From NCBI GenBank assembly GCA_977017645.1, contig OZ360225.1, positions 170,004,001 through 170,068,000 of the forward strand: a DNA stretch of 64,000 nt, in the 5' to 3' direction. A program made the position numbers and the translations under genes. Positions 597-64,000 of this stretch are shown one piece after another. The notes beneath the pieces are model-generated. The model searched no databases and was not told where the DNA came from. It saw only the letters and a list, made by a program, of their open reading frames with translations. Origin of the DNA: Torpedo marmorata (lineage: Eukaryota). Within the stretch, counting starts at the first letter, position 1. Every line of letters starts with the position of its first letter.

Positions 597-2898
597 GGTC
601 AAAGTGGCATAAACAGGCTCACTATCAGAGAAATTACAAACATGGTATAACATTGTAAATCAGTAGAGAGAGCACCGTTGATAATCTTTATGATGCAAGG
701 AAAATAATGAACTTGTGGACCAAGGATGCTGTCTCCAAAGAACGCTATCAGCGCTACCTCAGGGTTCCAATGACTGGCTTTGATCCCAACTGCTACCTTG
801 TAAGTCATACTTTTTGAACCTGACCACCTGAGTAGTTTTCTTTTTACCTCCATTCATCTTAAGCTCCATGGTTTTACGTTTGGTTAAATACTGACTTTTT
901 GCTGAGGTTACTCACTCTTGCCTGTTCTCTGGTCTTCAGTGTCAGAATCAATAATGAAACAATGTAATGGTCAAAGTAGTTTTTAGTGGAAACTAAAGTG
1001 ACTGCCAGCAAACAGATTTTGGGTGAGTAAGTGTTGATGACACCACTGATGGATTTCTTTCATCACTGAAGATTGGTGTCATGGACTTGATGTCTGTTAC
1101 TGTGCAAGAGAACAGCCTTCAACAGCATTTAAATCATTGCTCTTGTTCTGCACAGAGCACATCTTAGGAGTAAGAAGCCAAGACACAGCATCAAAAGTAA
1201 AATGTAGTCCTATCAATCGGATTTTTCTCCCCCCAGAGTATCACTTTTCCCTCCAAAAGAAATGCTAACATTTTTATGTTTTATTTGACACTAAGTTACA
1301 ACTGGGAGAGGGCAATTCCCTCTGGTAATGTTGGCAGTCAGTCCTTTCCTTCCTGGCCTTAATCCAAAACAGATGGAGCCTCTGGATTCAGAATCTAGGG
1401 TTTGTGGCATATAGGTGCCTCATTGTGAAAAATATTAACAGTGCCAGATCTGAACACAATTTTCCATATGTGATACCCAAATCTAATTTATTTTTATTTT
1501 TTTTAAATGAAGGTTTCCTAACTTTTACCAATTAGTTTAAATTCGGGTCTAAAAATTATAAGACGGGCAGAATAAATTGTTCCATAGACACTGCCCTCTG
1601 GTGGAATAAACTGCATCATTTTTAACAGGACAAAAAAAATTGCTTTCTACCCTGACTTTTGACTGCCAAAGAACATTCTGTTCCTTGGCTTCATTTAAAC
1701 TGTCTGTTTTAGTAAAAATAAACAGTGGAACAGATAAAACCCACAGGAATTTTGTGCTGGCTCTATGATTCCCACTCTGCCTGGAACAGTGCATTACAAG
1801 TATTGCACCCATATGGGTTTGATATTTCCTTTGTATGAAGGGGGCGGTGGCACAGTAAGGCAGAAAGAAGATTGCAAGGCAGTGCAACTTATTTAAGATA
1901 GGGTATGGCCAATTGGGATCTACTCTTGCTCTAACAAGGAACGAGCTCTGGCTTTTATAATGAACTGCATCACACCCTCAAGATATCCCAAAACACTTCA
2001 CAGTCAATTAACTTCCTGAAGCCATCCACAACTATGTACACACAAACTACGTGGCACAGTGTGATCCCACACTTGGCTAATGAGATAAGTCATTTTTATG
2101 GTGGTGGTGGTGAAGCCGAAAATTTAAGGAAATCTTCTTGCTTGTTTGCCAGCAACAGTCAAAGTTTAAAGTTGCTTCAGACACCTCCTCAGCCAAAACC
2201 TCGTGCTGTGCTAGATCAGTGTAGATTATATACTTAAGTCTCTGGGGTTGTCCTTAATCAGTTATCAAGAGGGAAAATGATTCAAAAGCTGTCTCTGAAC
2301 AGCTGCACCAACGATACAATTTTTATTTGTTATGGAAGGAGGTTCAACTTTGAGCCTCTCACTTCTGATGAGATGCAAGGTACAAGAGAATGTGGAATAT
2401 GTTCTCATTCTAGGCAAGGCAGCAAGCATATAGGAGTCAGACACTGGCCCTTTCAGCCAGCTCTACCATTCAACACAGTCATAACTACTCTTCCAAAATT
2501 GAATATTCTGGTCCTTCCCCCAATCACCACCCTCCCCCCCCCCCCCAACCCCGACATATCTCTAGAAGTTTGCACTTTTTTTTTTAATGAGACACCGCAC
2601 CATTTGTGTATGCTTATTCATGGAATAATCAGGTGTACAAGAACCTGAAGGAACCTGCTCTTGAAGCTATTCGACTCTCAAGGGCACCACACATGTGAAA
2701 TATTCTTCCAACGTGACTGCAAGAGAAACCATTCCTCTCAAATCACAGGATTATGAAGCTTAGAGGAAAGATAATTGATCAACTCGAACCCAAAGTAATG
2801 GAAAAGGGACAAAGAAATCTTTTGACTGCACACACTGTTCCAGAGCAGCAATAAACCTTGGGGTTCTGAATGACAGTGAAAGACTGCTACAGTAAGAA

Positions 2899-3750
2899 AA
2901 TGGCGGCGCTGCCAGAGCCGCTGTAGCGGCAGCACTGCCGCTGTAGCGGACCCGCGGGGAGCAAGGGAGCGGAGATGCAGCACTCCCATGGGGTCCAGCC
3001 GCCCAGTCAACTGCCGTTGGCTCCGCACGGGCTTTGACTGCCGTCGGCTCCGCATGGGCATTGAGGGAGCCGATGGTGGTTTTGTTTGAGATCCCACGAC
3101 CGTGGGGTCTGTGCCCAACATGGCAGCGCCTATCAATCGGCAGCAGCCACGAGGTGCTGCAAACTCCGGGGAAGTGGAGGACTGGAGCAGGGCACCAGAG
3201 GACGGAAAGATCACCCCCCCCCCCATCTAAGAAGGAGAGGCGGAGGAGACGACCCACGGGACGGTGACCATGGCGGCAGACCAGTGAGGGGCTCTGAGGC
3301 TGAAGGACCAGTGCATGCGGCGGGCTGCTGGCGACTTGAGGCGGAGGCTGTGGGCTGCTGGAGACTGCTGTCGGGAGACTCGTGCCGGGCTGCGGACTGC
3401 TGGAGACTGGCTCGAACTGTCTGGAGGAGTACCAGGTATCGGAACCGGGATGCGAGGGCGCCAAAGGGTTCCTGACCGTGGCGGAGGTTCGGATCTGGAG
3501 CTCAGGTTGCCGATTGTTTGGACTGGACTCTGTGTGGCTGCGGAAGCGCTGGAGGCGAATCTACGGACACTCAGTGACTCTGGGGGGACTCCCTTTTGCT
3601 TCTCTTTCTCTGACTGTAAGGAATGTTAGAGGCACTTAGGCAGTTTCTGCCGGTGGCAAATCTGTCTGCCTTGCAGCAGGCAAAAAGAAATTTCATGTAA
3701 TATGACACTGTTTTATTACTATGACAATAAATTGAATCTTGATCTTGAAT
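2899..3750 (+). mobile_element. GC-rich non-autonomous retroposon, full-length copy 1 (Rex1-like 3' tail)
   Basis: Near-identical to 18851-19600 and 26213-27068; starts aatggcggcgc, ends gacaataaattgaatcttga. Confidence 0.9.
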
Positions 3751-5101
3751 TTATCTGTATTACAAGATACAGTACATTGCAGACTTGAATTGCATTCCAG
3801 AGCATGTGTTATCCAACATAAATGCCAACTTCTTAAAGAAACCCCTCCCAACTCTTCAGATCTAACCATGCCTTGTGGCAAGCACTCCTGCACCTCAGGG
3901 CAGTCTATTGAGCTTTGTGATAGCACTGGTTTAGTAAGCTCTTTTGCCTTCTAGGCCAACATCCTGCTATCCCATCCTATGAACACAAGACTTTTAAGCT
4001 ACTTTATTACAATTAAAATAAAACAAGAATCTATCTTTCATTGTGAGTATACATTTCTTCTTTCCCCCGCCAACTGTATTCATTGCCAAGGTGGCCCCTT
4101 TCAACTCAAGGAAACACCTTCCATTTGGGTTTGATAATGATTTGCATCAATTTCCTGACTAGAATTCAGAAGAATGCCAGTTATAAAACTACTTTTGTAT
4201 GTGCGCAGTACTTCAAATAAATTCCAGCACAATTTAAGATCGCAAACTTATACATTTATGCACAAATCAAGCACAGTTAACTAATGCAAATGTTCTTACT
4301 CTCATTTTAATCAGGCTTCCCTTCTTGCTTCCTTACCTGTCACAAGTTGCCTTGGCGTATCCCCCCCATGTGTAGCACCATCATTGCTCAGGCGTTAAAT
4401 GCTAATTGGAAAATCTTTTTCTGCTCACCTAAGCTTCTGTTCCATCCCAAAGTAAAGCTGCTCCCCTCAAATGGAGAACTTCACATCCTTGTAAAATAGT
4501 AATCGATAAATGCGAAAACCTATGTATTCTCTTCCTTCTCTCCCAATGTACTTTATTGCATACTGGTTGATGGGAATTCCTAATCTATCTTCGGCGCATT
4601 TTTCAGAGGTAGAAGTTGGACATGGGTGGTCGAGAAGGGAGAAAGATTTGGAGTTTCTGTCCCACCCCCAACCACTAAGACTCCAATTAAAACCTTCCTC
4701 TTTGACCAGCACTTAGTCAACTGTCTTAATACTTGTGTCACTTTGATTTGATCCTCTTATGAAGAAGCACCTTGGGATGAATCTCTGCACTGAAAGCACA
4801 ATGTAAACCAAGTTACTGGTAGCTAGAGAAATACTTTTAAAATGAACTGCACGCATGTGGTGAATGGAAAATGCCAACAAATGTACTTTTAAGACTAGGA
4901 GAGTGTATTAGTTAATGAGCAACTTCCCCAGTCATTGGATGTACCTGTAAATATGAAACACAACCTTTCCAGTTATGGCTTAATAGGAGACTTGCAAACT
5001 GGACTATCTACATTTGAGTTATACCCAGTCTTTTAATCGTACAAGGCAGGACTATGGGTGCACGTTTATAACATCACTGTCAGTCAAGTCATGCAGATTG
5101 A

Positions 5102-6300
5102 AGCTCTTTTCACATTGGCTAAACAGTAAATTGGCGGTTCAACGAACCGGTTCAAAATGCTGTTTTTGCCGTTCACACTGGACCAATGTTAACCGGTTCT
5201 CTGCGCCCTTTCACACTCACCACCCGGCATTCCAGAGCAGAGGGGCGCCTATCCTCCATTGATGACGTCCTGAGTGACGCATCGAGTGATGCGGACCTGC
5301 CCTCCCAGAATTCAGTGCGGCAGAGAAACCCCTCCATGAGTGCTCCGTGCATATAGCCCTTTCATTATGCCAAGGCACAATGGGACATGAGGGCTTTAAA
5401 GGAAAAGGTGGTCAGTTCCTTGCCTACCCGCAGTCTCTCTCACTGTCTCTCCCTTCCCTCTGTCTCTCACAGACATATCTATCTATCCTTGATTGTTGTA
5501 TGTACCCAGTTCGTTGTGTGTGTACACGCGTGTATTTCATCCCTGCTGTGACTTTCCCACGCTTGCTATAAATTGTGCGCCTATGTATTTTATTGCCGCT
5601 ACTACTTTCCCATGGTCCTTTATAAATTGCGCGCGTATGTTTTATTAAATTGTGCGCATATTTTCCCACGCTCTTATTCGTGTTTGTTTTCTTCCCGCTA
5701 CGATTTTCTGATACTGGAGTAGGTTTACATAGGTCGGCACAACAACATGGGCCTGAATACGACTGGGATTGTCTGATCTCGGAAGCTAAGCAGGCACAGG
5801 ACTGGTCAGTACTTGGAGGGGAGACTGCCAAGGAACACCAGGTGCTGTCGGCTTCTCTCTGCCTTACGGTAGACAAAAAATTAAAGAATTTCATGTATGT
5901 TACATTCAAAATGTAGTATTACGTGACAATAATGGAATGGAACCTTTATACTGTGCTGTACATAATGCTTAATTATGTTTTAATTAAGCATGAATAATTT
6001 TGTTTACATACAAGATCATAATACATTGATCAGGATTTAGTAAATTTAATACAAAGTTTATACGCTTTGAATCTTTTGTTTCCTTCACGTTTCTGCACGC
6101 ACGCAAGTACGTCATCAACGTGTCACTAATTGGCCCCAGGATACCCCTGTCCCTTTCACACTGGGCTGATACACCCTACGTAGGCAGTTCATCCCCGGGG
6201 CGATCTGACGCCTCCGAGCCGATTCACGAGCGTTCAACTGGCACGTTAACCGGTAGATTGGCAGTTAATTACTAGGTTAAAGTGCCAGTGTGAAGAGGCT
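5102..6300. mobile_element. Non-autonomous DNA transposon, PIF/Harbinger-like MITE (copy A)
   Basis: Imperfect TIRs agctcttttcacattggc / gccagtgtgaagaggct; repeated subterminal ttcacactgg motifs; related to 12724-13584. Confidence 0.65.
5752..5947 (+). mobile_element. 5S rRNA-derived SINE (SINE3-type), 5'-truncated, with Rex1-like tail
   Basis: gtctgatctcggaagctaagcagg...tggtcagtacttggaggggagactgcc...caccaggtgctgtcggctt matches 5S rRNA (boxes A, IE, C); followed by a non-5S tail ending gtgacaataatggaatggaaccttt. Confidence 0.85.
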
Positions 6301-17359: not shown

Positions 17360-19935
17360 GAGTTCAACAACTTTGATAAATTGCATTTCATGCTCCCCAA
17401 AATGGGCTTTGGGGTGGGAATCCGAAATTGGATTCAACTGCTCTACACGGACATCCATAGTGCAGTTCAAATCAATGGGTGGGAAACAGAGCTTCCTCAA
17501 AAAGTCTAGAGTCAGGCAGGGTTGCCCGTTCTCTCCAGTCTTATTTGTACGCTGCATGGAGCACTTTGCTGAATCTATCAGTAGGCATGAGGGCATAAGA
17601 AGGGTGACGTTGCCAGGCAGTGGAGGCACTCAGGTCAAAGTCTCACTGTACATGGACGACGTTGCTGTCTTCTGTTCAGACACATGATCAGTTCGTAGAC
17701 TGATCAGCATCGGAGGCCAGTTTGAGTTGGCATCGGGTGCCAGGGTAAACCAGCAGAGTGAGGCAATGCTCTTTGATAACTGGTCTGACCAGTCTGTCAT
17801 CCGCTTCACAGTCAGATCTGACCACCTGAAGGTGTTGGGGATCTGGTTTAGAGACGCTGAGGTGTGCAACAAAAATTGGTTGGAGCAGATTGCACAGGTC
17901 CACCAGAAAATGGGTCTGTGGGTGTGGTGCTACCTCTCAACAACAGTGAAGAACCTGGTCATCGGGTGTGAAGTGCTCTCGGTACTGCTGTACGTGGCGC
18001 AGGAGTGGCCCATTCCCCACACCTCCACCCTGGAGGTCACCAGAGCAGTCTTCCGGTTCATATGGGGATCCAAAATGGAAAGTGTCCAAAGGATCACCAT
18101 GCACAAGTGGCCAGACAACGGGAGCAAGGGCATACCCCATGTGGCCCTCATCCTGATGACCACCTTTGTGTGTGGCTGCATCAGGCTGGGCATGGAACCA
18201 AAGTACAAGGGCAACAAATGCTACTCTGTGCTGATGTTCTACCTGTCCCAGGTGTTGCAAAGGTTGGGCCTGGACCCATTGCTGCACACTGTCCCAGTCA
18301 TTACCACACTACCTATCCTTTGTGGAAAAGTTTTTCCAGACAAATACCTTTGACTGGAAGTCCATCAGGCAGTGGTCAGCACGGAAGATGCTGCAGACAA
18401 TCAGGGACAAGGATTTGATGGATACTGTGGGTGGGTCCCTGAGCAGACTGTCCAGGTCATCTGGTGAATGCCTCATTGCCAGTGCTCACTGATAAGCACC
18501 AGGACTTGACCTGGCTGGCAGTGAGAGGAGCCCTCCCAGTCAGATCCTTCCTGTACGACCGGAACATCACCAACAACTTACATTGTCCCCGAGATAACTG
18601 CAGTGGAGTGGAGAGAGTAACTGGAGGCAGAATGCGGATTCACTATGAGTGTGCGGAGAAGGATGCAAGGGTCCTTGTCACTGTTCATCCTCAGCAGCAA
18701 CGTGACAGAGGAATCTGATTATTTTCAGGCTGTTCTCGGGGATGCATGCAGAGACAGACATCCGGAGCTGCTGTAAGATCATCAACAAAGGTGCCCTTTG
18801 GTCTCCCCAAAACTTGCTTGTCTTTCAGCACACGGAGATGTCGGTGAGGGCAGCCGCCCAGTCGACTGCTGTCAGTTCCGCACGGGCTTTGAACGGCCCG
18901 TTAAAGGAGCCGACGGTGGTTTTATTCAAGATCCCGCGACCGCGGTGTCTGCGCCCAAGATGGCAGCGCCTTTTAACCGGCAGCAGCCACGAGGGGCTGC
19001 AGACTCCGGGGAAGCGGAGGACTGGAGCAGGGCACCAGAGGACAGGAAGATCACCCCCCGTCTGAGAAGAAGAAGCGGAGGAGACGACCCACGGGACGGT
19101 GACCACGGCGGCGGACCGGTGAGGGGTTCTGAGGCTGAAGGACTAGTGCATGCGGCAGGCTGCTGGCGACTCGAGGCAAGGAACCCGCGGAGGCTGTGGG
19201 CTGCTGGAGACTGCTGTCGGGGGTCTCACGCCGGGCTGCGGACTGCTGGAGGTTGGCTCGAACTGGCTGGAGGAGTACCAGGTATCGGAACCGGGATGCG
19301 AGGGGGTGCCAAGGGCGCCCTGACCGTGTTGGAGGTTCGGATCTGGAGCTTGGGTTGCCGATGGTTTGGACTGGACTCTGTGTGGCTGTGGAGGCCGCGG
19401 AAGCGCTGGAGGCGAATCTACGGACACTCGGTGACTCTGGGGGGACTCTCTTTTGCTTCTCTTTCTCTGACTGTAAGGAATGTTAGAGGTGCTTAGGCAA
19501 TTTCTGCTGGTGGCGAATCTGTCTGCCTTGCAGCAGGCAAAAAGAAATTTCATGGATAATGACACTGTCTTATTACTATGACAATGAATTGAATCTTGAA
19601 TGCTGCCGACTGGCACATTCCATTCTGCAGGAGTAATTGCTGAGGGACGCACTGAGGCTTGATGCAGTCAACGCAAGAGCGCTGAATGGAAGGATCACAG
19701 TCCAGAGTCCTTCTGTTGTTGGGTATTGAGGGGCTGAGACCGAGGAGAAGTCCCTCAAACAACAGAGGGGAAGCAACTACAAGGTGCCACAGTGGTGGCA
19801 ACAGTGCTAAATAGAGAATGAATGTAACAATGTACATTAATGGAAATGTATGGATATGACAGTAAGGATGTGAAACAACTTTGGTTTTCTTTTTTGTAAA
19901 TCACTTATTATGAATAAAGTTTATTTTGGGGGGAA
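17360..19935 (+). mobile_element. Tx1-like (L1 group) LINE fragment, interrupted by GC-rich copy 2
   Basis: VRQGCPFSP, LYMDDV, ASGARVN, C-terminal Cys motif; 3' UTR with aataaag. Confidence 0.85.
18851..19600 (+). mobile_element. GC-rich retroposon copy 2 (5'-truncated)
   Basis: Homology to copies 1 and 3; splits the Tx1 site gtgaggg|aatgctgccg (empty site visible at ~20730-20760). Confidence 0.9.
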
Positions 19936-24484: not shown

Positions 24485-25132
24485 GCACAGCGATGGCAAT
24501 GGTGTAATTAAATGTAACAATGCACAGCGAAGGTAATGGTGTAATCAAATGTAACAATGCACAGCAGTAAAACACGAAAATCTGTAGACACCATGGTTGA
24601 AGTAAAAAACACAAATGCTGGAGAACTCAGCAGGTCAAACAGTGTCTTTTATGTAGCAAAGGTAGAAATACATAAGCGACGTTTCGGGCTTGAAGGGCTC
24701 AAGCCCGAAACGTCGCTTATGTATTTCTACCTTTGCTACATAAAAGACACTGTTTGACCTGCTGAGTTCTCCAGCATTTGTGTTTTTAACAATGCACAGC
24801 GATGGTAATGGTGTAATCAAATGTAACAACGCACAGCGATGGTAATGGTGTAATCAAATGTAACAATGCACAGCGAAGGTAATGGTGTAATCAAATGTAA
24901 CAATGCACAGCGATGGTAATGGTGTAATCAAATGTAACAACGCACAGCGATGGTAATGGTGTAATCAAATGTAACAATGCACAGCGATGGTAATGGTGTA
25001 ATCAAATGTAACAACGCACAGCGATGGTAATGGTGTAATCAAATGTAACAATGCACAGCGAAGGTAATGGTGTAATCAAATGTAACAATGCACAGCGATG
25101 GTAATGGTGTAATCAAATGTAACAATGCACAG
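24485..25132 (+). repeat. 37-bp minisatellite (aacaatgcacagcgatggtaatggtgtaatcaaatgt), ~11 units, split by the Penelope hairpin
   Basis: Direct tandem units at 24788, 24825, 24862 and onward; no spacers. Confidence 0.95.
24567..24787. mobile_element. Perfect-hairpin Penelope insertion (inverted 3' ends)
   Basis: ~88-bp perfect inverted arms around aggg; flanked by aacaatgcacagc on both sides. Confidence 0.9.
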
Positions 25133-25239: not shown

Positions 25240-27570
25240 TTGGGGGGGAGGGGAGGGTAGGAGGAGCAGCACAGACCAATAGGCAAGCGGTCATAGGTGG
25301 TTAAGGGTGGGAGGGCAGAAGAGAAAAAAGTTGAGAATTGATAGGGGGTGGCGGTTGCTCTCTGAATGGAAAAGTGATGGGGAGCTGGATGGAAGGAAAC
25401 AGAGGGATAGGGAAGAGAGAGAGACGGGGGAAGGGCCAAACAGAATCTGGAGGTCGATGTTCATACCATGTGGTTGGAAAGTACCCAGATTGAATATCCG
25501 GTGTTGTCCCTTCAATTTGCGAGTGGCCTCGGTTTGGCAGTGTATGAGTTCATGGACAGACATGCCGGCGTAGGAATGAGGTGTGGAATTTAAATGGTTG
25601 GCCACTGTGAGGTTCCCGTTATTGCAGCGGACTGAGCTAAGGTGCTCAACAAAACAATCTCCCCGTCCGCGTCCAGTCTTTCTGATGTAGAGGAGGCCAC
25701 AAGGGGAGCACCAGGTGCAGTGGATGACCCCTGCAGATTCACAAGTGAAGTGTTGCTTCACTTGGAAAGGCTGTTTGGGGCCCAGAATGGTGGTGTGGGA
25801 GGAGGTGTGGGCGCAGGTGTGGCATTTCCTGTGGTCACAGAGGTTGGTGCCGAAGGGGATGATTAGTGGGAAGGGATGAGTGGATGAGGGAGTAACGGAG
25901 GGAGCAGTCACTGCAGAGAGCAGAGAGAGAGAGGGGAGAGGGGAGATGGTGGGATCATGTTGTAGGTGATGGAAATTGCAGAGGATAATGTGTTGGTTGC
26001 GGAGGCTGGTGGGATGGTAGGTGAGGAAAAGGGGAATCCTGTTGTTGCATCTAGGGGCAGAGTTGATGGTAGTAGAGGGGAAGCCACATTTTTTGAAGAA
26101 GGAGGACATCTCAGATGATCTGGAATGGAAGTCTTCATCCTGGGAGCAGATGCGATGGAGACGGAGGAATTGAGAGAAAGGAATGTATCCTTACAGGGGA
26201 CAGGGTGTGAAGTAATGGCGGCATTGCCGGAGCCGCTGTAGCGGCAGCGCTGCCGCTGGTGCGGACCCGCGGGAAGCGAGGGAGCGGAGATACAGCGCTC
26301 CCGCGGGATCCAGCCGCCCAGTCGACTGCCGTCGATTCCGCACGGGCTTTGAACGGCCCGTTAAAGGAGCCGACGGTGGTTTTATTTGAGATCCCGCAAC
26401 CGCGGGGTCTGCGCCCAAGATGGCAGCGCCTATTAACTGGCAGCAGCCACGAGGGGCTGCAGACTCTGGGGAAGCGGGTGACTGGAGCAGGGCACCAGAG
26501 GACAGGAAGATCACCCCCCCGTCTGAGAAGGAGAAGCAGAGGAAACGACCCATGGGACGGTGACCACAGCGGCGGACCGGTGAGGGGCTCTGAGGCTGAA
26601 GGACCAGTGCATGCGGCGGGCTGCTGGCGACTCGAGGCGAGGAACCCGCGGAGGCTGTGGGCTGCTGGAGACTGCTGTCGGGGGACTCACGCCAGGCTGC
26701 GGACTACTGGAGGCTGGCTCGAACTGGCTGGAGGAGTACCAGGTATCGGAACCGGGATGCGAGGGGGTGCTGAGGGCGACCTGACCGTGTTGGAGGTTCG
26801 GATCTGCAGCTCGGGATGCCGATGGTTTGGACTGGACTCTGTGTGGCTGCGGAGGCTGCGGAAGCGCTGGAGGCGAATCTACGGACACTCGGTGTCTCTG
26901 GGGGGATTCTCTTTTGCTTCTCTTTCTCTGACTGTAAGGAATGTTAGAGGCGCTGAGGCAATTTCTGCCGGTGGCAAATCTGTCTGCCTTGCAGCAGGCA
27001 AAAAGAAATCTCATGGAATATGACACTGTCTTATTACTATGACAATAAATTGAATCTTGAATCTTGAAGAGGTTTAGTCGAAGTAACTATGGGAGTTGAT
27101 AGCTTGTTGATGATGTCTGTGGAAAGTTTGTCTCCCAAGATGGAGACAGAGAGATCAAGAAAGGGGAGAGTGTTGCCAGAGATGGACCAAGTGAATTTGA
27201 GGTCAGGGGGAAAGTTAGCTGCAAAATGGATAAAGTTGACGAGCTCATTATGGGTTCATGAGGCAGCATCAATGTAGTCATCAATGAAATTTGGGAAGGT
27301 TTGAGCAGCCTTGCCTGTGTAGGCTTTCAGCACGGATTGCTCCACATAGCCAACAAAAAGGCAGGCATAGCTGGGACCCATGCGGGTACCCATCGCCACC
27401 CCTTTGACTTGGAGAAAGTAGAATGAGTCAAAGAAGAAGTTATTGAGGGTGAGAACAAGTTCTGCCAGGCAGAGGAAGGCGGTTGTGGAGGGGGACTGGT
27501 TGGGTCTGTTGCTGAGAAAGAAAAGAAGGTGTTTGAGGCCTTCGGTATGGGGGATGGAGGTGTATAAAGA
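25240..27570 (-). mobile_element. Penelope-like element (RT + GIY-YIG), decayed, interrupted by GC-rich copy 3
   Basis: SLYTSIPH, GVAMGTRMGPSYA, FIDD; VIHCTWCSPCGLLYI. Confidence 0.9.
26213..27068 (+). mobile_element. GC-rich retroposon, full-length copy 3
   Basis: Same 5' start (aatggcggc) as copy 1; tail (tcttgaa)n; tgaag at both junctions. Confidence 0.9.
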
Positions 27571-27974
27571 TTGGCTATACACATATGAAGACTTTTTACC
27601 CCTCTGTTATTCAATATTCTTCACCCTATTGATTGGTACTTGCATAAAGGAAGTGGACCTTTTTGACATGATGCATGATGCAGATTGATTGTTTGGGATA
27701 AGCGCCTTATTTAAAACATTGCTGGAAGACTTGTTTCCTGGTTAAGGTGCTGTTCAAAAAGATCTCAAATGGGAAAATAAATAATGGAGTCTGAATACTT
27801 ATTGGTACTAGGTTTAACACTCACTCTGTTCTTTGAAGTAGACATTCAGGTTTAGAATATGATACTCACAAACTAGGATGTTGTAATTCTGTATTATTAA
27901 AAATGTCTACTCTTTTTACATCAGATATATCTGTGTCTTATGATTATAAAATAAAGTGCCTTTCCAGTGCAGTT

Positions 27975-31891: not shown

Positions 31892-32139
31892 TGTGGTAAA
31901 CCACTTTGTATGTATTGTGGCCTGAGGCAAGAATGACCATGACCTGTCTGTCTGTCCCGGTGACCCCTCCCCCTTTACATGGAATAAAGGCATTGAGCCA
32001 GCTACTCCTCCCCCAGTTCCGGGACAATCCAGCAGGGATCATCAGGTCAAGGTGTATTAGCCCTGGCTTTGATTCTGGTAATAAAAGCCTATTAATTCCT
32101 GCACGTCTAGACTCGCGTCTGTCATTGATAGGTATATCA
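31892..32139 (+). mobile_element. 5' LTR of Gypsy-type retrotransposon
   Basis: TG...CA ends; AATAAA at 32080; directly upstream of the gag ATG. Confidence 0.75.
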
Positions 32140-32172
32140 ATTTTATTACCAGTTTCAACAAAATCCGAATCG

Positions 32173-34182
32173 ATGGAGAATTTGTTAAAGCCAGATAAGC
32201 TAGACATCGACCCCCTGGCCCAAGACGCTGCAAGCGATTTCGAACTTTGGCAACGCTGCTTCGTAGCCTACATGAGGTCGTCCGGAGCAGCTACTGACGA
32301 GCAGAAACTCGATATCCTCATGTCCAGGGTAAGCAAGCGAGTGTATGGCGCCGTCAGGGACTGTGAGACTTTTGATAATGCCTTGGACGCCCTCCGAAAG
32401 CTGTACCTGACGCCAGCGAACGAGATTTTCGCAAGGCACCGGATATCGCAGCGGTACCAGCGACCCGGAGAGTCGGTCTCCGAATACATCCAGGACGTGA
32501 TGCTCCTGGTGCGGGCGTGTGACTGTCGAGCCCTGACGGCCGAGCAACACGCCGAAATACTGGCAAGGGACACAATCATAAGGGGGATCAGGTCGGGCTA
32601 CATCCGCCAGCGATTGCTGGAACACGCCGACCTGACCCTGAAATCGACCGTCCAGAACATCCTTAATCTGGACTCGGCCCTAAAGAACGCTGACGCTATG
32701 CAGGCGCAGCCTGCTTCTTGGATCGCCCCAACCGCCAGCCCTGCAAGAAACGCGACGGCCGCTGCCGTCTACCGGGACCAGCGCTCCGTCGCTTTCATGT
32801 TTAACAGCCAGCAGCGGGGTAAAATTAAAAATGACAAGATCATGAGGTGGAGAATAGAACTCTCCACCTACAATTACGACATCCTTTACCGGCCCGGGAA
32901 GCTCAACGAGCCCCCTGACGCTCTATCCCGGGGATCGTGCGCCAGCGCGCAGATCGACCGGTTATACTCCCTACATAATGACCTCTGCCACCCAGGAGTT
33001 ACCAGGCTGTTCCACTTCATTAAAGCACGGAACCTGCCTTTCTCCCTGGATGAGGTCAAGACCATGACCAGCAGCTGCCGAGTCTGTGCGGAGTGCAAAC
33101 CGCAGTACTACCGCCCCGACAGAGCACAGCTGGTCAAAGCCACCCGCCCGTTTGAACGTCTCAGTATAGACTTCAAGGGCCCCCTTCCCTCCACGAACCG
33201 CAATGTGTACTTCCTCAACATCATCGATGAGTACTCGCGGTTCCCCTTTGCCATCCCCTGCCCAGATACCTCGGCGGCGTCGGCTATCAAGGCTCTCCAC
33301 CAGGTTTTCACCGTGTTCGGGTTCCCCAGATATGTCCATAGCGACTGGGGATCCGCTTTCATGAGCGGGGAGCTGCGACAGCACTTGCAGACCCGAGGCA
33401 TCGCTACCAGTAGGACCACGGGTTACAACCCACGGGGGAACGGACAGGTGGAGAGGGAGAACGCCACAGTATGGACAGCGACACTACTGGCCCTGAAAGC
33501 AAAAGGGTGGCCAGTGGCTCACTGGCAGGAGGTTCTCCCGGACGCCCTCCACTCCATACGATCCCTTCTGTGTACTGCCACTAACACTACCCCTCACGAA
33601 CGTATCTTTTCCTTCCCCAGAAAATCGACCACCGGGACTACACTCCCTGCCTGGCTGACGTCCCCGGGGCCGGTGCTACTCCGCAAACATCTTCGGAGTA
33701 GCAAGTACGAGCCCTTGGTCGAGAGGGTGCAGCTGATCCATGCGAACCCGCAGTACGCATTCGTGGTTTTCCCCGACGGGCGGGAAGACACGGTGTCAAT
33801 ACGGGACCTGGCGCCTGCAGGAGCGTCAGAAGAGGTCCCCGACAGCGGGAACGCCGGGTCGCAGCTGCCCCCTCCGGCCCATCCGCCTCCCAGCACGGCG
33901 TTGTCCCGGTCACAGCTGGACAGGCCACTAGCCAGGCAGGAGGCGAACCAGACCCAGATCCACCCTACTGTACCTACTCCCGTTCCACAACCACAACCGC
34001 CTCCGCAGGTATCACGTACTCTCACTCGTACCTTCATTCCACAACCACTATGTGAACTTCAGGAGGAAGTCAGGGGAACACGACCCAGTCCTCATCGAGG
34101 GCTCAGTCGTGGAGAGGGTCAAGAACTTCAAATTCCTGGGTGTCAACATCTCCGAGGATCTGTCCTGGAGCATCCACGTTGA
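32173..34182 (+). CDS. In-frame Gag - RNase H C-terminus - integrase fusion ORF (PR/RT deleted); last ~43 codons run into Rex1 sequence
   Basis: Gag-like FARHR...YQRPGESVSEY; RH tail WRIELSTYNYDILYRPG..N...DALSR; IN HHCC and D(IDFKG), D(HSDWG), E(NGQVER); no stops. Confidence 0.8.
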   Translation: MENLLKPDKLDIDPLAQDAASDFELWQRCFVAYMRSSGAATDEQKLDILMSRVSKRVYGAVRDCETFDNALDALRKLYLTPANEIFARHRISQRYQRPGESVSEYIQDVMLLVRACDCRALTAEQHAEILARDTIIRGIRSGYIRQRLLEHADLTLKSTVQNILNLDSALKNADAMQAQPASWIAPTASPARNATAAAVYRDQRSVAFMFNSQQRGKIKNDKIMRWRIELSTYNYDILYRPGKLNEPPDALSRGSCASAQIDRLYSLHNDLCHPGVTRLFHFIKARNLPFSLDEVKTMTSSCRVCAECKPQYYRPDRAQLVKATRPFERLSIDFKGPLPSTNRNVYFLNIIDEYSRFPFAIPCPDTSAASAIKALHQVFTVFGFPRYVHSDWGSAFMSGELRQHLQTRGIATSRTTGYNPRGNGQVERENATVWTATLLALKAKGWPVAHWQEVLPDALHSIRSLLCTATNTTPHERIFSFPRKSTTGTTLPAWLTSPGPVLLRKHLRSSKYEPLVERVQLIHANPQYAFVVFPDGREDTVSIRDLAPAGASEEVPDSGNAGSQLPPPAHPPPSTALSRSQLDRPLARQEANQTQIHPTVPTPVPQPQPPPQVSRTLTRTFIPQPLCELQEEVRGTRPSPHRGLSRGEGQELQIPGCQHLRGSVLEHPR

Positions 34183-34792: not shown

Positions 34793-35550
34793 TCAGAATC
34801 AGAATCAGAATTTATTGTCATGAACAAGTCATGAAATTCGGTGTTTTGCGGTAGCATCATAGTGCAAACATTCATATTATAACCATCTTACGACATTACT
34901 ATAAAAAAAAGTATAAATAATAGTGCACAAAAAGTAAGGCAGTGTCTTTGGTTCATTGATTATTCAGGAATCTGATGGCAGCGGGGAAGAAGCTGTCCTT
35001 GTGCCGTTGGGTGCTCATCTTTAGGCTCCTGTACCTTTTTCCCAAGGGTAGCAGAGTGAAGAGGGCATGGCCTGGGTGGTGGGGGTCTTTGAGGACAGAG
35101 GCTGCTTTTTTAAAACACCGTCTCTTGTAGATGTCCTTGATGGAGTGAAGTCTGGTGCCTGTGATGTCACAGGCCGAGTTAACAACCCTCTGGAGTTTAT
35201 TCTTGTCCTGAGAGTTAGCGCATCCATACCAGGTAGTGATGCAACCAGCCAGAATGCTCTCCACGGTACACCTGTAGAAGTTTACGAGAGTCTTCGGTGA
35301 CATACCGAATCTCCTCAGACACTTCACAAAGTATATCCATTGGCGAGCCTTCTTTGTGATTGCATCAATGTGGAGGCTTCAGGACAGATCCTCGGAGATG
35401 TTGACACCCAGGACTTTAAAGTTCTTGACCCTCTCCACTACTGAGCCCTCGATGAGGACTGGGTCGTGTTCTCCTGACTTCCTCCTGAAGTCCACAATCA
35501 TCTCCTTGGTTTTGCTGAAGTTGAGCGCAAGGTTGTGGTCGTTACACCAT
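34793..35550 (-). mobile_element. Rex1/Babar LINE 3' part, tail-to-tail with the previous copy
   Basis: ORF 34953-35327; tail (tctgat)n. Confidence 0.9.
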
Positions 35551-37623: not shown

Positions 37624-38546
37624 TGTAGCCGACTGCTACGAAGAAACACACACACGCAGTGTGGAAGGTTTAAGCTCTCTGCTTTAATGAGGCTGGAAAT
37701 GCTTCTTTCATACAGTTGGAGTTCCCGCCGTTTGGTTGATTGGTTGACATCAGCCACATGAATAACAATAGCGGGCGGGAACGTTCTTGCATATGAATAC
37801 CCTTCTTCCCCAGCCTGGTATTGATCTGTTAGCTGGGCAGCTTGGCAAGTGCCATTTTAGGGCTGCTTGTCTTGAACTGCTCCAGCTTTCAACCGTGCTG
37901 GTTCGCTATGCTATGGGTCGCGTTACAGTGAGTTATGCCGCTGTTTACTACCGCGCGCGCCGCGCGATGTGCCGGCTCGATCTCCGCGGTGGCGGGCCGC
38001 CACATGACCCCCCCCAAAAACCGGTGCTACAGTTCATAGTGTTCATGGATGCAGTCCCCAATGTCTTTGGTGGTCTGCCTCTGCGCCGAGGTGCTGGCGT
38101 CTCCACGGGTTGTGTCAGGTCCGTGTGTGCCGGCTTGAGCCTGTCTGCGGTGAAGACCTCTGGTTTGCCACCGATGTCCAGTTCGAAGGTGGCCCCGTTG
38201 TTCCGGACGACTCAGAAAGGGTCCTTCGTAGGGCTTCTGTAGCGGTGGACGGTGTGGCCCTCTGCGTACGATCACATACAGTCTTGGAGTTCTTTAGGGA
38301 TGTTGAACTTGGCTTGCCCGTGTCTGGAGGGTGGGATCGGAGCCAGGTTACCGACCTTTTCCCGTAGCCTGTCCAGGAAGGTGGTTGTATCCTCCTGTTG
38401 ACCTCTGGGCGGTGGGACGAAATCCCCAGGGACCATGAGTGGAGCTCCGTAGACGAGCTCGGTGGAGGATGTGTGGAGGTCTTCCTTCGGGGCTGTACGA
38501 ATCCCCAGCAGTGCCCATGGCAGTTCGTCAACCCAGTTGGGGCCCT
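37624..38546 (-). mobile_element. Gypsy (CsRN1-like) 3' LTR (37624-38004), PPT and integrase C-terminus
   Basis: TGT...ACA termini; ggggggggtca PPT; GPNWVDELPWALLGIRTAPKEDL on the minus strand. Confidence 0.8.
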
Positions 38547-41500: not shown

Positions 41501-41843
41501 ATTTACGTAATAAGTATCATTTCTTTTTGAAAATATGGAGACCTTATATGAAGGTTGTTGGTTTAAGGATTTGAAGATCTCTGGACATTGGATCTGACCA
41601 GCAAACCTATCCTCCATAATAAAATTAGTTATTGATGTATTTTTTTAGATTGACATTCACCTAATACAATCTTTTTCTTTCTTTCTTTCTTTTTATCTTT
41701 ATTAGATGAGAAGGGGTCGGTGGGTTAGGGAGGGGAGGGAGGCAGGGGGGGTGAAAATTTATCACATGTAGTTTGATAATTTTATATTTTATCTTATGTA
41801 TTTTGTGATTTAAAATTTTAAATAAAATATATTTTTTTAAAAA
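38547..41843 (+). mobile_element. 5'-truncated L1 with 14-bp TSD (ccagttggggccct), itself interrupted by an antisense L1
   Basis: TSD at 38533-38546 and 41844-41857; plus-strand pieces 38547-38697 and ~41133-41843. Confidence 0.85.
38698..41132 (-). mobile_element. L1 ORF2 (RT to 3' end), antisense insertion
   Basis: DAEKAFD, QGCPLSP, FADD, CFRC..H..C; G-rich 3' UTR. Confidence 0.9.
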
Positions 41844-42300: not shown

Positions 42301-42304
42301 CCAT

Positions 42305-44152: not shown

Positions 44153-44460
44153 CACGTAGGTCTTGATGAAGTCGGTGACACCTGTTGCATATTCATTCAG
44201 GTCTATGGATGAGTTCTTGAATATGTTCCAGTCCTGCAGACGCTCCTCCGCCTCCCTCGACCATACTTTAGTCGTCCTCACCACTGGTGCTTTGTTTGTA
44301 TACATTCCTCTCTTTTGTAGACATATCTTTCTTCTTGAGTACAGTTTACAGTTAACGATCAGTAGAAATTCTGCCTGGCCCACAGGAAAAAGAATCTCAT
44401 GGTTGTGTGTGATGTCGTGCATGTATTCTGACAATAAATTTTGAACTTTTAACTTTGAAC
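44153..44460. mobile_element. Rex1 fragments (minus-strand ORF piece and plus-strand 3' UTR)
   Basis: WSREAEERLQD...VTDFI; tail gacaataaattttgaactttt. Confidence 0.7.
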
Positions 44461-54727: not shown

Positions 54728-57700
54728 TGATGGATAGTAAAACAATAAATGTTGTAAGTATTAATATAAATGGGCTTAATAATCCAATTAAAAGAAAGAA
54801 AACTTTAGCGTATATTAAAAAATTGAATGTAGATATAACTTTTTTACAAGAGACGCATTTGACAGATTTGGAACATCAGAAGTTAAAAAGAGAATGAGTT
54901 GGCCAAGTGGTAGCTTCCTCATTTAATTCTAAAGCAAGAGGAGTAGCTATACTAGTTAATAAAAAGTTACCTTTTAAAATACAATCTGTAGTTATAGATG
55001 TGGCAGGTAGATATGTTTTAATACATTGCCAGATATATTCAGAATTTTGGACACTTATGAATTTGTATGTACCAAATGCGGATGATGAACAATTTATTCA
55101 AGACTCTTTTTTACATTTGTCAGAAGCTAATGAGAATATTTTAATTGGTGGGGATTTTAATTGTTGTTTAGATCCAATAATGGATAAAACATCAAGATCA
55201 TTTGTTAAAACTAAAATTGCTAAAAGAGTTCTCACTTTGATGAAAGATTTAAATTTAATAGATATTTGGAGAAAATTGAATCCTAGAGAAAAAGATTATT
55301 CTTTTTATTCTTTTAGACACGATTCATACTCTAGGATAGATCTATTTTTATTGTCTTCACAGGTTCAAGATAGAATAACGCAAGCATCTTATAAAGCGAG
55401 AATAATTTCTGATCATTCACCTTTATTAATATCTTGTATAATTCCGGAACAAGAGAAAACTGTATATAGCTGGAGATTTAATTCTTCTTTATTAAAAAGA
55501 AAAGATTTTTGTGATTATATGAGAAGGGAAATTCAGGAATTTTTACAAATAAATTCTAATTCTACTGATAATAAATTTATTATTTGGGAAGCTTTAAAGG
55601 CTTATTTAAGAGGTCAAATAATAAGTTATTCAGCTAAAATTAAGAAGGATTATCTTCGGGAGGTAGACAATTTACAGAAGGAGATTGAATACTTGGAGAA
55701 AGATTTGCAAAAAAATAGATCAGATCAAAAAAGGAATAATTTAGTTGGAAAAAAATTACATTATAATTTATAACAAACATATAAAATGGAAAAATTAATT
55801 GAAAGAACTAAACAAAGATATTATGAATTAGGGGAAAGAGCACATAAAGTTTTGGCATGGCAATTAAAAAAAGATCAAACTTCTAGAACTATAAATGCTA
55901 TAAAAAAAAGAATTCTAGGGAAATAACGTATAAACCTCGAGAAATAAATGATTCTTTTAAAGACTATTATTTGAATTTATATAAATCTCAGATTGATCAA
56001 GATGATTCTAAAATTAATAGATTCTTATCTAAAATTACATTACCTAAATTAAATACTCAAAGTAGGGATTTTTTGGATTTACCTTTCTCAATGAGGGAAG
56101 TTAATGAGGTTCTTACTTCTTTAACGAGTGGTAAATCTCCAGGGGAAGATGGATTTCCATCAGAATTTTATAAAGAGTTTAAAGATTTATTGATACCTCC
56201 ATATATGGATGTATTGAAACAAATTACGGAAACTTATTCGTTACCGGATACATTTTTGAACACAATAATCACAGTTATACCTAAAAAAGACAGAGACGTA
56301 TTGAAAACAGAATCATGTAGACCTATTTCATTGTTAAATGTAGACTATAATATAATGGCAAAAATTTTAGCAAATAGAATGGCTAATTATTTACCAGATT
56401 TAATTCATGTAGATCAAGCTGGTTTTATTAAAAATAGATATTCAAAAGATAATATAGCTAGATTAATTAGTTTAATTAATGTGCATAAAAAGAAGGAAGA
56501 TTTACCATTAGTATTAACGTTAGATGCTGAAAAGGCTTTTGATAGATTAAAGTGGAATTTTTTATTTAAGGTATTGGAGAAATTTGGTTTCGGAACTACA
56601 TTTATTAATTGGATTAAAACTATATATAAAGAACCATCTGCTAAAGTAGTTACAAATGGACAAATTTCTTCAAGATTTCCCCTGACTAAATCTACTAGAC
56701 AAGGATGTCCTTTGTCACCACAGGCGCACCCCAAGGATGCGTGCTTAGTCCACTGCTCTACTTGTTATACACTCATGACTGTGTGGCCAGGCACAATTCC
56801 AATGCCATATACAAGTTTGACGATGACACCACAGTTGTCGGCAGAATCACAAACGGCAATGAGGAAGCGTACAGGAGAGAGATAGATCAGCTCATTGAAT
56901 GGTGTAATGGCAACAATCTTGAGCTCAACGTCAGCAAAACCAAGGAGATGATTGTGGACTTCAGGAGGAATTCAGGGGAACACGACCCAGTCCTCATCGA
57001 GGGCTCAGTCGTGGAGAGGGTCAAGAACTTCAAATTCCTGGGTGTCAACATCTCTGAGGATCTGTCCTGGAGCATCCACGTGGATGCAATCACAAAGAAG
57101 GCTCGTCAGCGGCTATACTTTGTGAGGTGTTTGCGGAGATTCGGTATGTCACCAAAGACTCTCGTAAACTTCTACAGGTGTACCGTGGAGAGCATTCTGG
57201 CTGTTTGCATCACTGCCTGGTATGGAGGCGCCAACTCCCAGGACAAGAGTAAACTCCAGAAGGTTGTTAACTCGGCCTGTGACATCACAGGCACCAAACT
57301 TCACTCCATCGAGGACATCTACATGAGGCGGTGTCTTAAAAAAGCAGCCTCTATCCTCAAGGACCCCCACCACCCAGGCCATGCCCTCTTCACTCTGCTT
57401 CCATCCGGAAAAAGGTACAGGAGCCTAAAGACGAGCACTCAACGGCACAAGGACAGCTTCTTCCCCGCTGCCATCAGATTCCTGAATAATCAATGAACCA
57501 AAGACACTGCCTTACTTTTCGTGCACTATTGTTTATAATTTTTTATAGTAATGTTGTTAGATGGTTAATATGAATGTTAATTGCACTATGATGCTGCCGC
57601 AAAACACCGAATTTCATGACTTGTTCATGACAATAAATTCTGATTCTGATTCTGATTTACTTTAGCGATAGAACCTTTGGCAGAATTAGTTAGAAAAGAT

Positions 57701-61487: not shown

Positions 61488-62689
61488 CTGAAAGCAGATA
61501 CTCCAACTACTTATTCGATTCCCCACATCCCCTTGTCTCCATTTGAGCCTCTAACCAACCATTCCACTACTTGATTATATCTCTCATACTCTCTACCCCA
61601 ATGTTTGAAGTGCAAGTTCTCAGAGTCCCATTCTTTGATGCCTGACCCCCTATGCCCTGATTCTTGAAATCTTGACCCTTGACCCTTTGGGATTCCAAAC
61701 TTCAATGTCACAAATCCAATCAACTCCAGGTCTAACTCAGACTCCAACTCCTAACAACAGTTCTGTTTCAATTCCTCCCATAGAGATGCTGGAATCTGTG
61801 ACCTACCTATTCTCTGTTTTCAGTTCTCATTGCACACATGTTATTCTCACATGAAAGGCCTTTTGTCCCTTGCAATACTGTAGCCTCATGCTTGAAAGAA
61901 TATTACCAACAGTGGGATGTGGACAAAACTTTTCCTCATCCCTTAGACCATTGCTTTAAAGTGTCTATTTCTGTGCTAAAGAATTGGTGAGCTCAGTTTC
62001 TAATTAAGCCACACTTTTACTACCTCAGAATCACCCAACCATCTTAGATTTAAAAAAAAAAATGCTGTACAGAGGAGATGTGACTGTTCATCTACACGTG
62101 CAGTAATGTGATAATGATCAAATGACATTTTTAAAAGTTGATGTGGAAATATTGGCCAGGATATCGGAGGAGGATGCACGTGTTTTTCTTCGAAACACTG
62201 CCAGTCAAGTGATTTCCCCATCTTAAGTACTGGATGAAGCAAAGGTTTCCTCCAATTATATACTGGAATGTTCTGAGGTTATGTCCCCATCACAATCCCA
62301 GTTCAATGGATTGAACCATCTGTTCTCAGCTTTGCAATCATTTTACTCCCAAATTGATCTGTGGGCTACACATTTGTAGCATCGCAAACTGCATGTTTCT
62401 ACCTTCCAACATCACTTTAGTCTGCTCATGCATCAGTTCCTGTGCTAGTGAAATCATTACCCATGTCTTTGTTACCTCTACTCATGAATATTTTGATGTA
62501 AGGTTTTCTGTCTTCCCTCATTTCATTCCCTGTAAACTTGTCATGTAAAACTCTCTATCATTGTCATGTAAGTTGCACTGCCCCGATAGTCCATCATCTT
62601 TAAGATATCAGGGCTGTTCAGTTGCTTTAACAGCAGTACTGCTGGTGTAGACTCAGAAGGAGTGGGGAGCAGGGCCTTTTAGCCTTGGA

Positions 62690-62880
62690 GTGGACCTTTC
62701 AGAACAGGAAACCACAGCAGGAGACCAGTCTCCAACTCAGGGCTCAGCAGCTGAAGGCTTCATACCAGGCCGCAGGCTGCTGGTGGCCAGCTTCTGGGAA
62801 CCAGGTATTGAGTCTAAGATTTGCGAAGAAGCGATGGCGAGCAGGTTTCCCGAAGGATACCAGGCGCTGACAGCTTCCCA
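62690..62880 (+). mobile_element. Old decayed relative of the GC-rich retroposon
   Basis: agggctcagcagctgaagg...caggctgctgg...gggaaccaggtat motifs. Confidence 0.5.
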
Positions 62881-62974
62881 ATGCTTCGTGGGTTTGGAAG
62901 CAGGGATTGAGGAGATGCAACTTGGATGCCTCCATCTCGATTCTACCTTTAGGCAGAAGATAAAGAAACCTGAA

Positions 62975-63242: not shown

Positions 63243-63880
63243 GTTCAAAGGATCAAAGGTTCCTTTTATTGTCACATAATAATACTTTAAAATGTAATGT
63301 ACATGATATATTTTAACTTTTGTCTGTCATAAGGCAAACAAAGAGTCACCATGAGCATTGTCCAGTGCCTCTAACAATAGGAGAAAGATAAGCAAAAGAG
63401 AGTCCCTTCAGAGTCACTGAGTGTCCATGGATTCGCCTCCAGTGCTCGCTCTGCGTCTGTAGCCGCACAGACTCCAGTTCAAACCATCGGCAAACTGAGC
63501 TCTAGATCCAAACCTCTGATATGATCAGGAACCCTTCAGCACCCGAGGCCTTTCGGGAGCCCTTCTTGCCTTCAGCACCCTCTCGAATCCCGGTTCCGAT
63601 ACCTGGTTCCCATGAGCCAGTCCCCAGCAGCCCACAGCCGCTGTAAGCCCTTTGACTGCAAATCGCCAACAGCCCGCAGCCTGTGTGGGTCTGTCAGCCA
63701 CTGAGCCCTCGTCGGTCCGCTGCCAAGGCTCCTAAGCTTCTCCTTCTAAAAGGGGCGTGTTCATCCTGTTTCTGGTGCCCTCAGTGGATCCACTGCTCCC
63801 CCAGATTCTGCAACCCCTCGTGGTGTGCTGCCCAGCATAGGCGCCGTTATCTTGGGCACAGACCATGAGGTTGCAGGATT
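63243..63880 (-). mobile_element. Diverged subfamily of the GC-rich retroposon with a ggaaccttt-type tail
   Basis: Shares accaggtatcggaaccggga, tggaggcgaatc, ggacactcagtgactctg; tail gtgacaataaaaggaacctttgatcctttgaacc. Confidence 0.8.
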
Positions 63881-64000
63881 TTAAAAAAAGCACTGTTGAC
63901 TGCAGCATGTAAGAATTTTGGTACATTATGAATCATTATTCATTAGATCCTATTACTCTCAATCCTCAATTTTTAAATTTTTTATTTATTTTAGACATAC

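What the first reader, a model, noticed from the sequence alone, without database searches (positions are those of the whole stretch)
2899..3750. Multi-copy ~850-bp GC-rich, structured, non-coding retroposon with no Pol III head, using Rex1-like tails
Seen: three young copies (2899-3750, 18851-19600, 26213-27068) and two older relatives (62690-62880, 63243-63880) in 64 kb. Two copies start at the same base (aatggcggc) and one is 5'-truncated. All young copies end in gaaatt(t/c)catg…gacaat(a/g)aa + (tcttgaa)n, like the local Rex1 ends (gaatttcatg…acaataaa + (tctgat)n). Insertions show microhomology to the tail rather than long TSDs. There are no tRNA, 5S or 7SL boxes. The 5' part has YY1-like motifs (aaaatggcggc, caagatggc) and stacked hairpins (gcggcagcgctgccgc, ccgtcg…cgacgg, cgggc…gcccg, gcagcc…ggctgc). 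Inference: a possibly undescribed Pol II-driven non-autonomous element mobilised by Rex1/Babar that disperses CpG-island-like sequence and may carry a structured or ribozyme 5' end.
Basis: partly seen in the sequence, partly recalled or inferred. Interest (0 to 1): 0.7.

Follow-up and report, generated by a model that had tools for sequence, protein, structure and literature searches.

The report
Rex1 parasite with hairpin-rich head
This is a very abundant 855-base non-coding jumping element, probably of a ray, that starts and ends like the host's Rex1 retrotransposons and so likely borrows their enzyme and their promoter signal instead of the small-RNA promoter that ordinary SINEs use.

Summary
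The element is a dispersed family of about 855 bp, 1.8% of 400 kb of blindly placed genome samples (roughly 100,000-350,000 young copies by extrapolation). It has a sharp 5' end at ATGGCGGC, frequent 5' truncation, no long target duplications, no conserved reading frame and no Pol III head. Three subfamilies succeed each other. It is not a LINE 3' UTR: 0 of 48 unselected tails have a Rex1 ORF as their own upstream part. Full-length Rex1-type LINEs of three families, and one copy of a fourth, start with the same A(A/G)ATGGCG motif. It matches the TISU/YY1 element, and in two families the single ORF opens at that ATG. All share a 3' stem-loop + CAATAAA + repeat layout, but no autonomous element with the same tail sequence was found. 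The first 260 nt fold strongly; no ribozyme was found. 5S- and tRNA-headed SINEs carry the same tail. Pol II transcription and Rex1 mobilisation are inferred. The kind is known (bipartite non-autonomous LINEs, GC-headed AviRTE SINEs, Sadhu); a Rex1 version was not found in the papers searched. Dfam and Repbase could not be checked. The scan noted similar elements in other genomes.

The parts
26214..27068 (+). Full-length young (Y) copy
   Evidence: GC 0.61, CpG o/e 0.84
2899..3750 (+). Full-length young-type copy, more diverged, with a small duplication in hairpin 3
   Evidence: GC 0.60, CpG o/e 0.69
18851..19601 (+). 5'-truncated young copy (lacks the first 98 nt)
63243..63890 (-). 5'-truncated copy of the oldest (O) subfamily
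   Evidence: 86% to the O consensus over 668 nt
62680..62900 (+). Decayed internal fragment of an old relative
   Evidence: 70% over 135 nt to the O consensus, E 5e-12
26214..26222 (+). 5'-terminal TISU/YY1-like motif (ATGGCGGC), the start of full-length copies
   Evidence: same kind of motif starts Rex1-type families A, B, C, E
26217..26254 (+). Predicted hairpin 1 (13-bp stem) over the bases that follow the first ATG; stem unchanged in all three subfamily consensuses
26263..26311 (+). Predicted hairpin 2
26325..26381 (+). Predicted hairpin 3, with the one two-sided change (G-C versus A-U) between subfamilies
26416..26427 (+). Second TISU/YY1-like motif; in the older subfamilies it is a full TISU match and 18 of 19 nt equal the first bases of Rex1-type family E
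26480..26940 (+). GC-rich body without excess folding; internal segments gained and lost between subfamilies
26983..27000 (+). Small predicted hairpin before the terminal stem-loop
27010..27049 (+). Predicted terminal stem-loop (TCA...TGA) followed by CAATAAA, the layout of Rex1-type 3' ends
27051..27068 (+). Heptamer repeat tail (TCTTGAA)n, 5-32 nt of unbroken repeat in 28 copies
5733..5940 (+). 5S rRNA-headed SINE that shares the O-type tail (related element, not a member)
   Evidence: Rfam 5S match 5733-5853, E 2e-6; 82% over 88 nt to the O tail
56699..57655 (+). 5'-truncated Rex1-type family A copy (RT end, 3' UTR, (TCTGAT)n tail): candidate enzyme source

Best explanation
[quoted passage not shown] Steps: (1) shown: fixed 5' end, 5' truncations, variable repeat tail, short or no target duplications, i.e. 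the marks of target-primed reverse transcription; (2) shown: no conserved ORF, no Pol III boxes, internal T runs; (3) shown: the 5' motif type and the 3' layout are shared with autonomous Rex1-type LINEs of this genome; (4) inferred: YY1 binding at the motif starts a Pol II transcript a few bases upstream of the ATG; (5) predicted by folding: hairpins in the first 260 nt and at the 3' end; inferred: hairpin 1 dampens translation from the TISU ATG, and the 3' stem-loop is what the enzyme binds; (6) inferred: the partner changed over time, since the old subfamilies date with family B and the young one with families A, E and F, none of which has its tail sequence. The origin of the body is unresolved; at least the second motif looks like a captured Rex1 5' end.
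For: 40 of 40 scored matches are near full length at 94-100%; flanks are unrelated in 29 loci. In contigs of a DNA-like run, depth rises from about 1.3 million near the 5' end to 4-5.8 million at the 3' end and falls to 421 just behind the tail; 267 contigs go loose at the 5' base. Frames from the second ATG are 178, 53 and 99 aa in the three consensuses; no Pfam match in the three longest frames tested. All 5 full-length family A copies and 5 of 10 family E loci start at an AGATGGCG-type motif; the ORF from that ATG is 1019 aa in 1 of 5 A copies and 994 aa in 4 of 5 E copies. 9 of 11 family B 5' ends start at or near AAATGGCGCC. TISU is SAASATGGCGGC, lies just downstream of the start site and acts through YY1 (PMC3177215, passages). 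The terminal stem-loop + CAATAAA + repeat is predicted for Y, M, O and families A, B, B2, C, E, F. Paired head positions differ less between subfamilies than unpaired ones (19 of 176 against 22 of 84, p 0.003).
Against: No autonomous element with this tail sequence was found among six Rex1-type families sampled. Only the young tail is significantly like a Rex1 tail in sequence (family B, 0 of 500 shuffles), and B looks older (7.5% against 2.7%); the M and O tails are not (108 and 63 of 500). Family F starts without the ATG motif. Apart from the 19-nt match to E, the body does not align to full-length A, E or F. Covariation is thin: one two-sided change in 85 head pairs, 2 of 17 tail pairs; the stem effect loses significance for G/C positions when the O fold is used (p 0.14). 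ATGGCGGC is a common motif in GC-rich DNA. The label 'Rex1' rests on structure, not on a comparison with a named Rex1 sequence.
Confidence: 0.7

Rival explanations
1. It is a plain internal-deletion derivative of one Rex1 family, now rare or extinct, whose GC-rich 5' region and 3' end were joined (a classic bipartite non-autonomous LINE).
For: Both ends are Rex1-like. The second motif matches the first 19 nt of family E at 18 positions (chance about 8e-4 after allowing for the shared 9-mer and 10 comparisons). A short piece at the start of the O tail weakly resembles the A and B 5' ends (3-11 of 500 shuffles for three A copies).
Against: Families A and E have almost no 5' UTR and F about 114 nt, so 740 nt of non-coding head and body has no evident source. 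No alignment to full-length A, E or F beyond short words. 116 of 118 head matches run on into the body, none into an ORF, though most of these loci were chosen for full-length copies.
Confidence: 0.14
2. The head is a captured CpG-island promoter or first exon of a host gene with a TISU start, joined to a Rex1-type tail module, in the way 5S and tRNA heads were joined to the same tail.
For: TISU occurs in 4.5% of human protein genes (PMC3177215). CpG o/e of the consensuses is 0.87-0.93. The last ~125 nt are shared with a 5S-headed SINE and, in one locus, a tRNA-like head.
Against: No conserved frame; long hairpins are unusual for such exons (own knowledge); the motif is as easily explained by Rex1 itself. 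No host source was searched for, because thousands of copies fill the result list.
Confidence: 0.08
3. The fixed 5' end is made by self-cleavage or by Pol III, not by Pol II initiation.
For: Strong 5' folding; a relaxed HDV-like descriptor gives 7 overlapping matches in M and O starting at positions 6-9.
Against: Strict descriptor: 0 matches in all three; relaxed: 0 in Y; hammerhead core only in M. No Rfam ribozyme match. No box B, no box A before position 200, and T4+ runs at about 175 in all three. My descriptor was written from memory and had no positive control.
Confidence: 0.06
4. It is the long 3' UTR of an autonomous LINE.
For: LINE-type tail and 5' truncations.
Against: Fixed 5' end with unrelated flanks. 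Of 48 tails outside the loci chosen for them, 32 follow the body, 5 a 5S head, 10 are stubs or other heads, and 1 lies behind a Rex1 copy that has its own complete tail.
Confidence: 0.02

Closest known systems
Bipartite ORF-less non-autonomous LINEs (RIME, NARTc, Bov-A, RTE-N, Vingi and R2 derivatives; PMC5786205, parts 1-4 of 5 read)
   Same: Non-coding, LINE-like 5' and 3' termini, thought to be Pol II transcripts moved by the parent LINE.
   Different: That 2018 paper lists only RTE, Ingi, Vingi and R2 as producing them. Here the partner type is Rex1, the shared sequence is short (motif, 19 nt, tail layout), and most of the element has no LINE source.
BuceSINE and ManaSINE2, GC-rich-headed elements moved by AviRTE (PMC4844689, passages)
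   Same: GC-rich head of unknown origin on a LINE-derived tail that is also used by tRNA- and 5S-headed SINEs.
   Different: RTE clade, birds, head motif GGCCCCGG; here Rex1-type tail, TISU/YY1-like motif, about 855 nt.
Sadhu (Arabidopsis) and SVA (primates), as described in PMC4494074 (passages)
   Same: Sadhu: about 900 bp, non-coding, no recognisable Pol III promoter. SVA: composite, Pol II, moved in trans.
   Different: SVA is moved by L1 (same passage); poly(A) tails for both are recalled. No long tandem repeat here and no known component parts.
Rex1/Babar LINEs (PMC6274825 section 4; PMC13343379 passages)
   Same: 3' UTR followed by an oligonucleotide repeat; Rex1 coverage is reported highest in rays; no ORF1.
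   Different: The element encodes nothing. The only Rex1-tailed SINE in the table of PMC3747384 (passages) is tRNA-headed (SINE2-5_NV).
TISU element (PMC3177215, passages) and the YY1 site of L1 (PMC11602158, passages)
   Same: Motif at the very 5' end; in L1 the YY1 site sets the start of transcription.
   Different: In L1 it precedes a long UTR. In Rex1-type families A and E the motif's ATG opens the ORF. Function is untested here.

Membership tests
Non-autonomous non-LTR retroposon | Dispersed copies with fixed 3' end, 5' truncation and variable repeat tail | tested here: met
Non-autonomous non-LTR retroposon | No conserved protein-coding frame | tested here: met
Non-autonomous non-LTR retroposon | Mobilisation in trans by a LINE protein | not testable with these tools
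   needs a cell assay
SINE in the strict sense (SINE1/2/3) | Head derived from tRNA, 5S or 7SL RNA with internal Pol III boxes | tested here: not met
SINE in the strict sense (SINE1/2/3) | 3' end shared with a partner LINE | tested here: inconclusive
   layout shared, sequence only partly; no exact partner
Bipartite non-autonomous LINE | 5' part homologous to the 5' end of an autonomous LINE | tested here: inconclusive
   shared start motif and one internal 18-of-19 match to family E; nothing longer
Bipartite non-autonomous LINE | 3' part homologous to the same LINE family as the 5' part | tested here: not met
   best 5' match is E, best 3' match is B; an unsampled family cannot be excluded
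Bipartite non-autonomous LINE | Pol II transcription | not testable with these tools
   needs capped-end or inhibitor data
Rex1/Babar (the candidate partners) | Single ORF with AP endonuclease and RT, no ORF1, oligonucleotide-repeat tail | tested here: met
   994-aa and 1019-aa ORFs opening at the 5' end; RVT_1 and PF09004 in both, endonuclease family hit in E only
Rex1/Babar (the candidate partners) | RT groups with named Rex1 sequences in a tree | not tested
   no named reference at hand
TISU element | Consensus SAASATGGCGGC | tested here: inconclusive
   full match at the second motif of M and O and in an E copy; first motif matches only the ATGGCGGC part; Y second motif has one change
HDV-like or hammerhead ribozyme | Nested double pseudoknot or hammerhead core near the 5' end | tested here: not met
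   descriptor recalled, no positive control
A family already in Dfam or Repbase | Sequence match to a database entry | not testable with these tools
   databases not available

The most novel reading that the evidence does not exclude
Rex1 LINEs are leaderless elements that use one TISU/YY1 motif as both promoter and start codon, and cartilaginous fishes carry a long-lived class of Pol II parasites that keep this motif, cover its ATG with a conserved hairpin, and survive by presenting a shape-conserved 3' stem-loop to successive Rex1 families; the same tail then served as the base on which 5S and tRNA heads made new SINEs.
Probability: 0.3. Interest if true: 0.7.

Novelty: new variant of a known kind. 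Interest (0 to 1): 0.46.

Why it matters
If true, it adds Rex1 to the short list of LINE clades with ORF-less Pol II parasites, and explains about 1.8% of a 6.2-Gb genome as CpG-rich, promoter-like insertions. It offers a natural test set for two open points: how Rex1, which lacks ORF1 and here almost lacks a 5' UTR, is transcribed and translated, and whether its enzyme reads a shape rather than a sequence. One tail under three kinds of head fits the proposed route from non-autonomous LINE to SINE (PMC5786205).

Tried and rejected
Exact autonomous partner: protein searches with six Rex1-type queries, a DNA search with the old tail (none of 29 loci had an ORF running into the tail), and contigs laid on the tail (the listed loose ends upstream were variants of the element itself or short, 24 of about 360 shown) found none. 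A rare partner is not excluded. Second motif as a separate start: 4 truncated copies begin at 185-230, about what an even spread gives; rejected. The 178-aa frame of Y is not kept in M or O; rejected as coding. Expression: no RNA holder listed; two runs guessed to be RNA were contigs only and cannot show start, strand or level. Rfam matches inside or beside the element were far below threshold. The bacterial promoter scan is irrelevant. Row L097x had wrong coordinates and was ignored. A shared TTTAAACGGCC word with family A (E 0.7) is not significant. Paper searches listed no paper whose title or abstract describes this family; only the papers cited were opened, no supplements were read, and subscription journals and Repbase Reports are not covered, so a description there may exist.

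Full report
Setting. The window lies in a 6.2-Gb assembly. I take it to be a cartilaginous fish, probably a ray; that rests on the repeat content as I recall it and on other notes of the scan, and I did not test it.

Observation. Self-comparison finds the three young copies at 86-94% identity and, with subfamily consensuses, both older pieces. A search of the genome gave 8,417 candidates; all 40 scored cover nearly the whole query at 94-100%. In 29 fetched loci the copies begin at or next to ATGGCGGC, end in GACAATAAAT + (TGAATCT)n, and have unrelated flanks. These loci were chosen for full length, so I also took 40 stretches of 10 kb at round coordinates on large contigs. They hold 19 matching places, 7,111 of 400,000 bases (1.8%); 13 match the young subfamily best, which extrapolates to about 108,000-346,000. 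Two of the 13 are probably one split copy, and one of the 19 is a 5S-SINE tail. Four of the 13 reach the 5' end. Contigs of a DNA-like run show depth rising about three- to fourfold from 5' to 3', and 267 contigs going loose at the first base. Related sequence is held by runs of ten coded organisms, four of them only at small shares.

Insertion marks. In 28 of 29 young copies whose junctions could be read, no duplication exceeds 7 nt; 5 have 5 nt or more, against 4.4% of mismatched pairs.

History. Copies fall into three groups, O, M and Y, at 9.8%, 9.0% and 2.7% non-CpG distance from their consensuses (30, 30 and 29 best hits to one query each). The tree is a ladder from O through M to Y. Frames are not kept between them, so the element is non-coding. 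Young-type copies in unselected DNA have a median distance of 2.7% (13 copies), family A of the LINEs 3.0% (10) and family B 7.5% (8).

No Pol III head, no ribozyme. ARAGORN finds nothing in the window, Rfam nothing credible in the element. There is no box B, no box A near the 5' end, and T runs lie at about 175. A recalled HDV-like descriptor gave no strict match; a relaxed one matched M and O but not Y.

Structure. The first 180 nt of one copy fold at z -7.4. In 120-nt windows the first 240-300 nt of the consensuses score z -2 to -7 (one O window -0.6), mostly better on the sense strand; the middle scores near zero; the 3' end -2 to -5. Paired positions differ less between subfamilies (Y fold 19 of 176 against 22 of 84; M fold 13 of 171 against 28 of 89; O fold 21 of 175 against 21 of 86). 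Of 85 head pairs 72 are unchanged, 5 change on one side and keep pairing, 1 changes on both sides, 7 break. So the stems are conserved, but covariation proper is thin.

The link to Rex1. I recovered full-length or near full-length LINEs of families I call A, B, C, E and F. A and E are 3.2 kb with one ORF of 1019 and 994 aa carrying RVT_1 and PF09004, plus an endonuclease hit in E. That fits Rex1 as described (PMC6274825 section 4; PMC13343379 passages), but I had no named Rex1 to compare. All 5 full-length A copies among 20 loci and 5 of 10 E loci start at an AGATGGCG-type motif, and the long ORF opens at that ATG in 1 of 5 and 4 of 5 of them. 9 of 11 B ends and the one C end seen start with a like motif; F does not. 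The motif agrees with TISU, SAASATGGCGGC, a YY1-dependent element that directs transcription and translation from leaders as short as 5 nt (PMC3177215, passages); I recalled the motif first and then checked it there. The element carries the motif twice. The second, in M and O, equals the first 19 nt of E at 18 positions. The same paper reports that a hairpin 6 nt behind the AUG cut TISU translation by about 60%; hairpin 1 here starts within the ATG and Y and O stop after 8 codons, so I infer weak translation.

The tail. Folding predicts a terminal stem-loop with TCA...TGA-type base, then CAATAAA and repeats, in Y, M, O and in A, B, B2, C, E, F. In sequence only Y against B stands out (0 of 500 shuffles; A 34, F 111, C 362; M and O against B 108 and 63); Y against E gives 81% over the last 37 nt. 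A joint fold of 13 tails keeps 17 pairs, 2 with two-sided changes. No LINE with the element's tail turned up: in 1.56 Mb, 48 tails outside chosen loci divide into 32 behind the body, 5 behind a 5S head, 10 stubs or other heads and 1 behind a finished Rex1 tail. The young subfamily therefore likely uses an enzyme that tolerates a different tail sequence, or a rare family I did not sample.

Shared tail. A 5S-headed SINE in the window and in several loci shares the last ~125 nt with O, and one locus shows a tRNA-like head on it (by eye). Which came first is not settled.

Comparison. It works like a bipartite non-autonomous LINE or a GC-headed AviRTE element, but fails strict SINE membership and does not meet the test that both ends come from one family. 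PMC5786205 (2018) names only RTE, Ingi, Vingi and R2 as sources of ORF-less bipartite elements. Ten paper searches showed no description of this family (listed under Tried and rejected); a preprint on shark and ray genome size had no whole-word mention of Rex or SINE. A look-up of earlier scan notes by sequence found nothing; by words it returned four unchecked notes on similar elements in other genomes, which are not independent evidence.

Verdict. A real, very abundant, ordinary-in-kind but well-defined parasite of Rex1-type LINEs; a new variant of a known kind. The most useful lead is the TISU-like start shared with nearly leaderless Rex1 ORFs.

Noticed in passing
L272-L276, L280 (oriented ~1260-4510); L081 5770-8826: Rex1-type families E and A have their single ~1000-aa ORF opening at an ATG about 3-4 nt from the element's 5' end, in a TISU-like context. 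Several E copies are 99.4-99.9% identical, so E is very young.
   Followed up: partly
window 5733-5940; L185 2349-2572; L115 near 2173 (- strand): 5S-headed and tRNA-like-headed SINEs share the O-type tail of the element.
   Followed up: partly
L050 ~2515-2625: A stretch that looks like U6 snRNA plus an A-rich tail (recognised from memory) is inserted just inside the 5' end of a family E copy.
   Followed up: no
window 25291-27574 and 47882-50361: Two Penelope-like RT elements (by eye; no Pfam match for the one frame tested); the 26214 copy is inserted into one of them.
   Followed up: no
window 31900-34182 and 35478-37687: LTR-retrotransposon-type gag, integrase and RT frames, described only.
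   Followed up: no
window 38700-44200 and 52900-59700: Several AT-rich L1-type elements, with Rex1-type copies inserted in them.
   Followed up: no
window 24787-25132; 47234-47622: Minisatellites of 37 nt (9.4 copies, 96% matches) and 57 nt (6.9 copies).
   Followed up: no
L011, L227, L254, L088: Copies or tail stubs of the family sit in or right behind the 3' ends of other Rex1-type elements, which may reflect priming on similar repeats.
   Followed up: no
run X19 laid on window 26208-26351: In another organism's contigs the first ~140 nt are covered about tenfold less than the next part, so the head may differ there.
   Followed up: no
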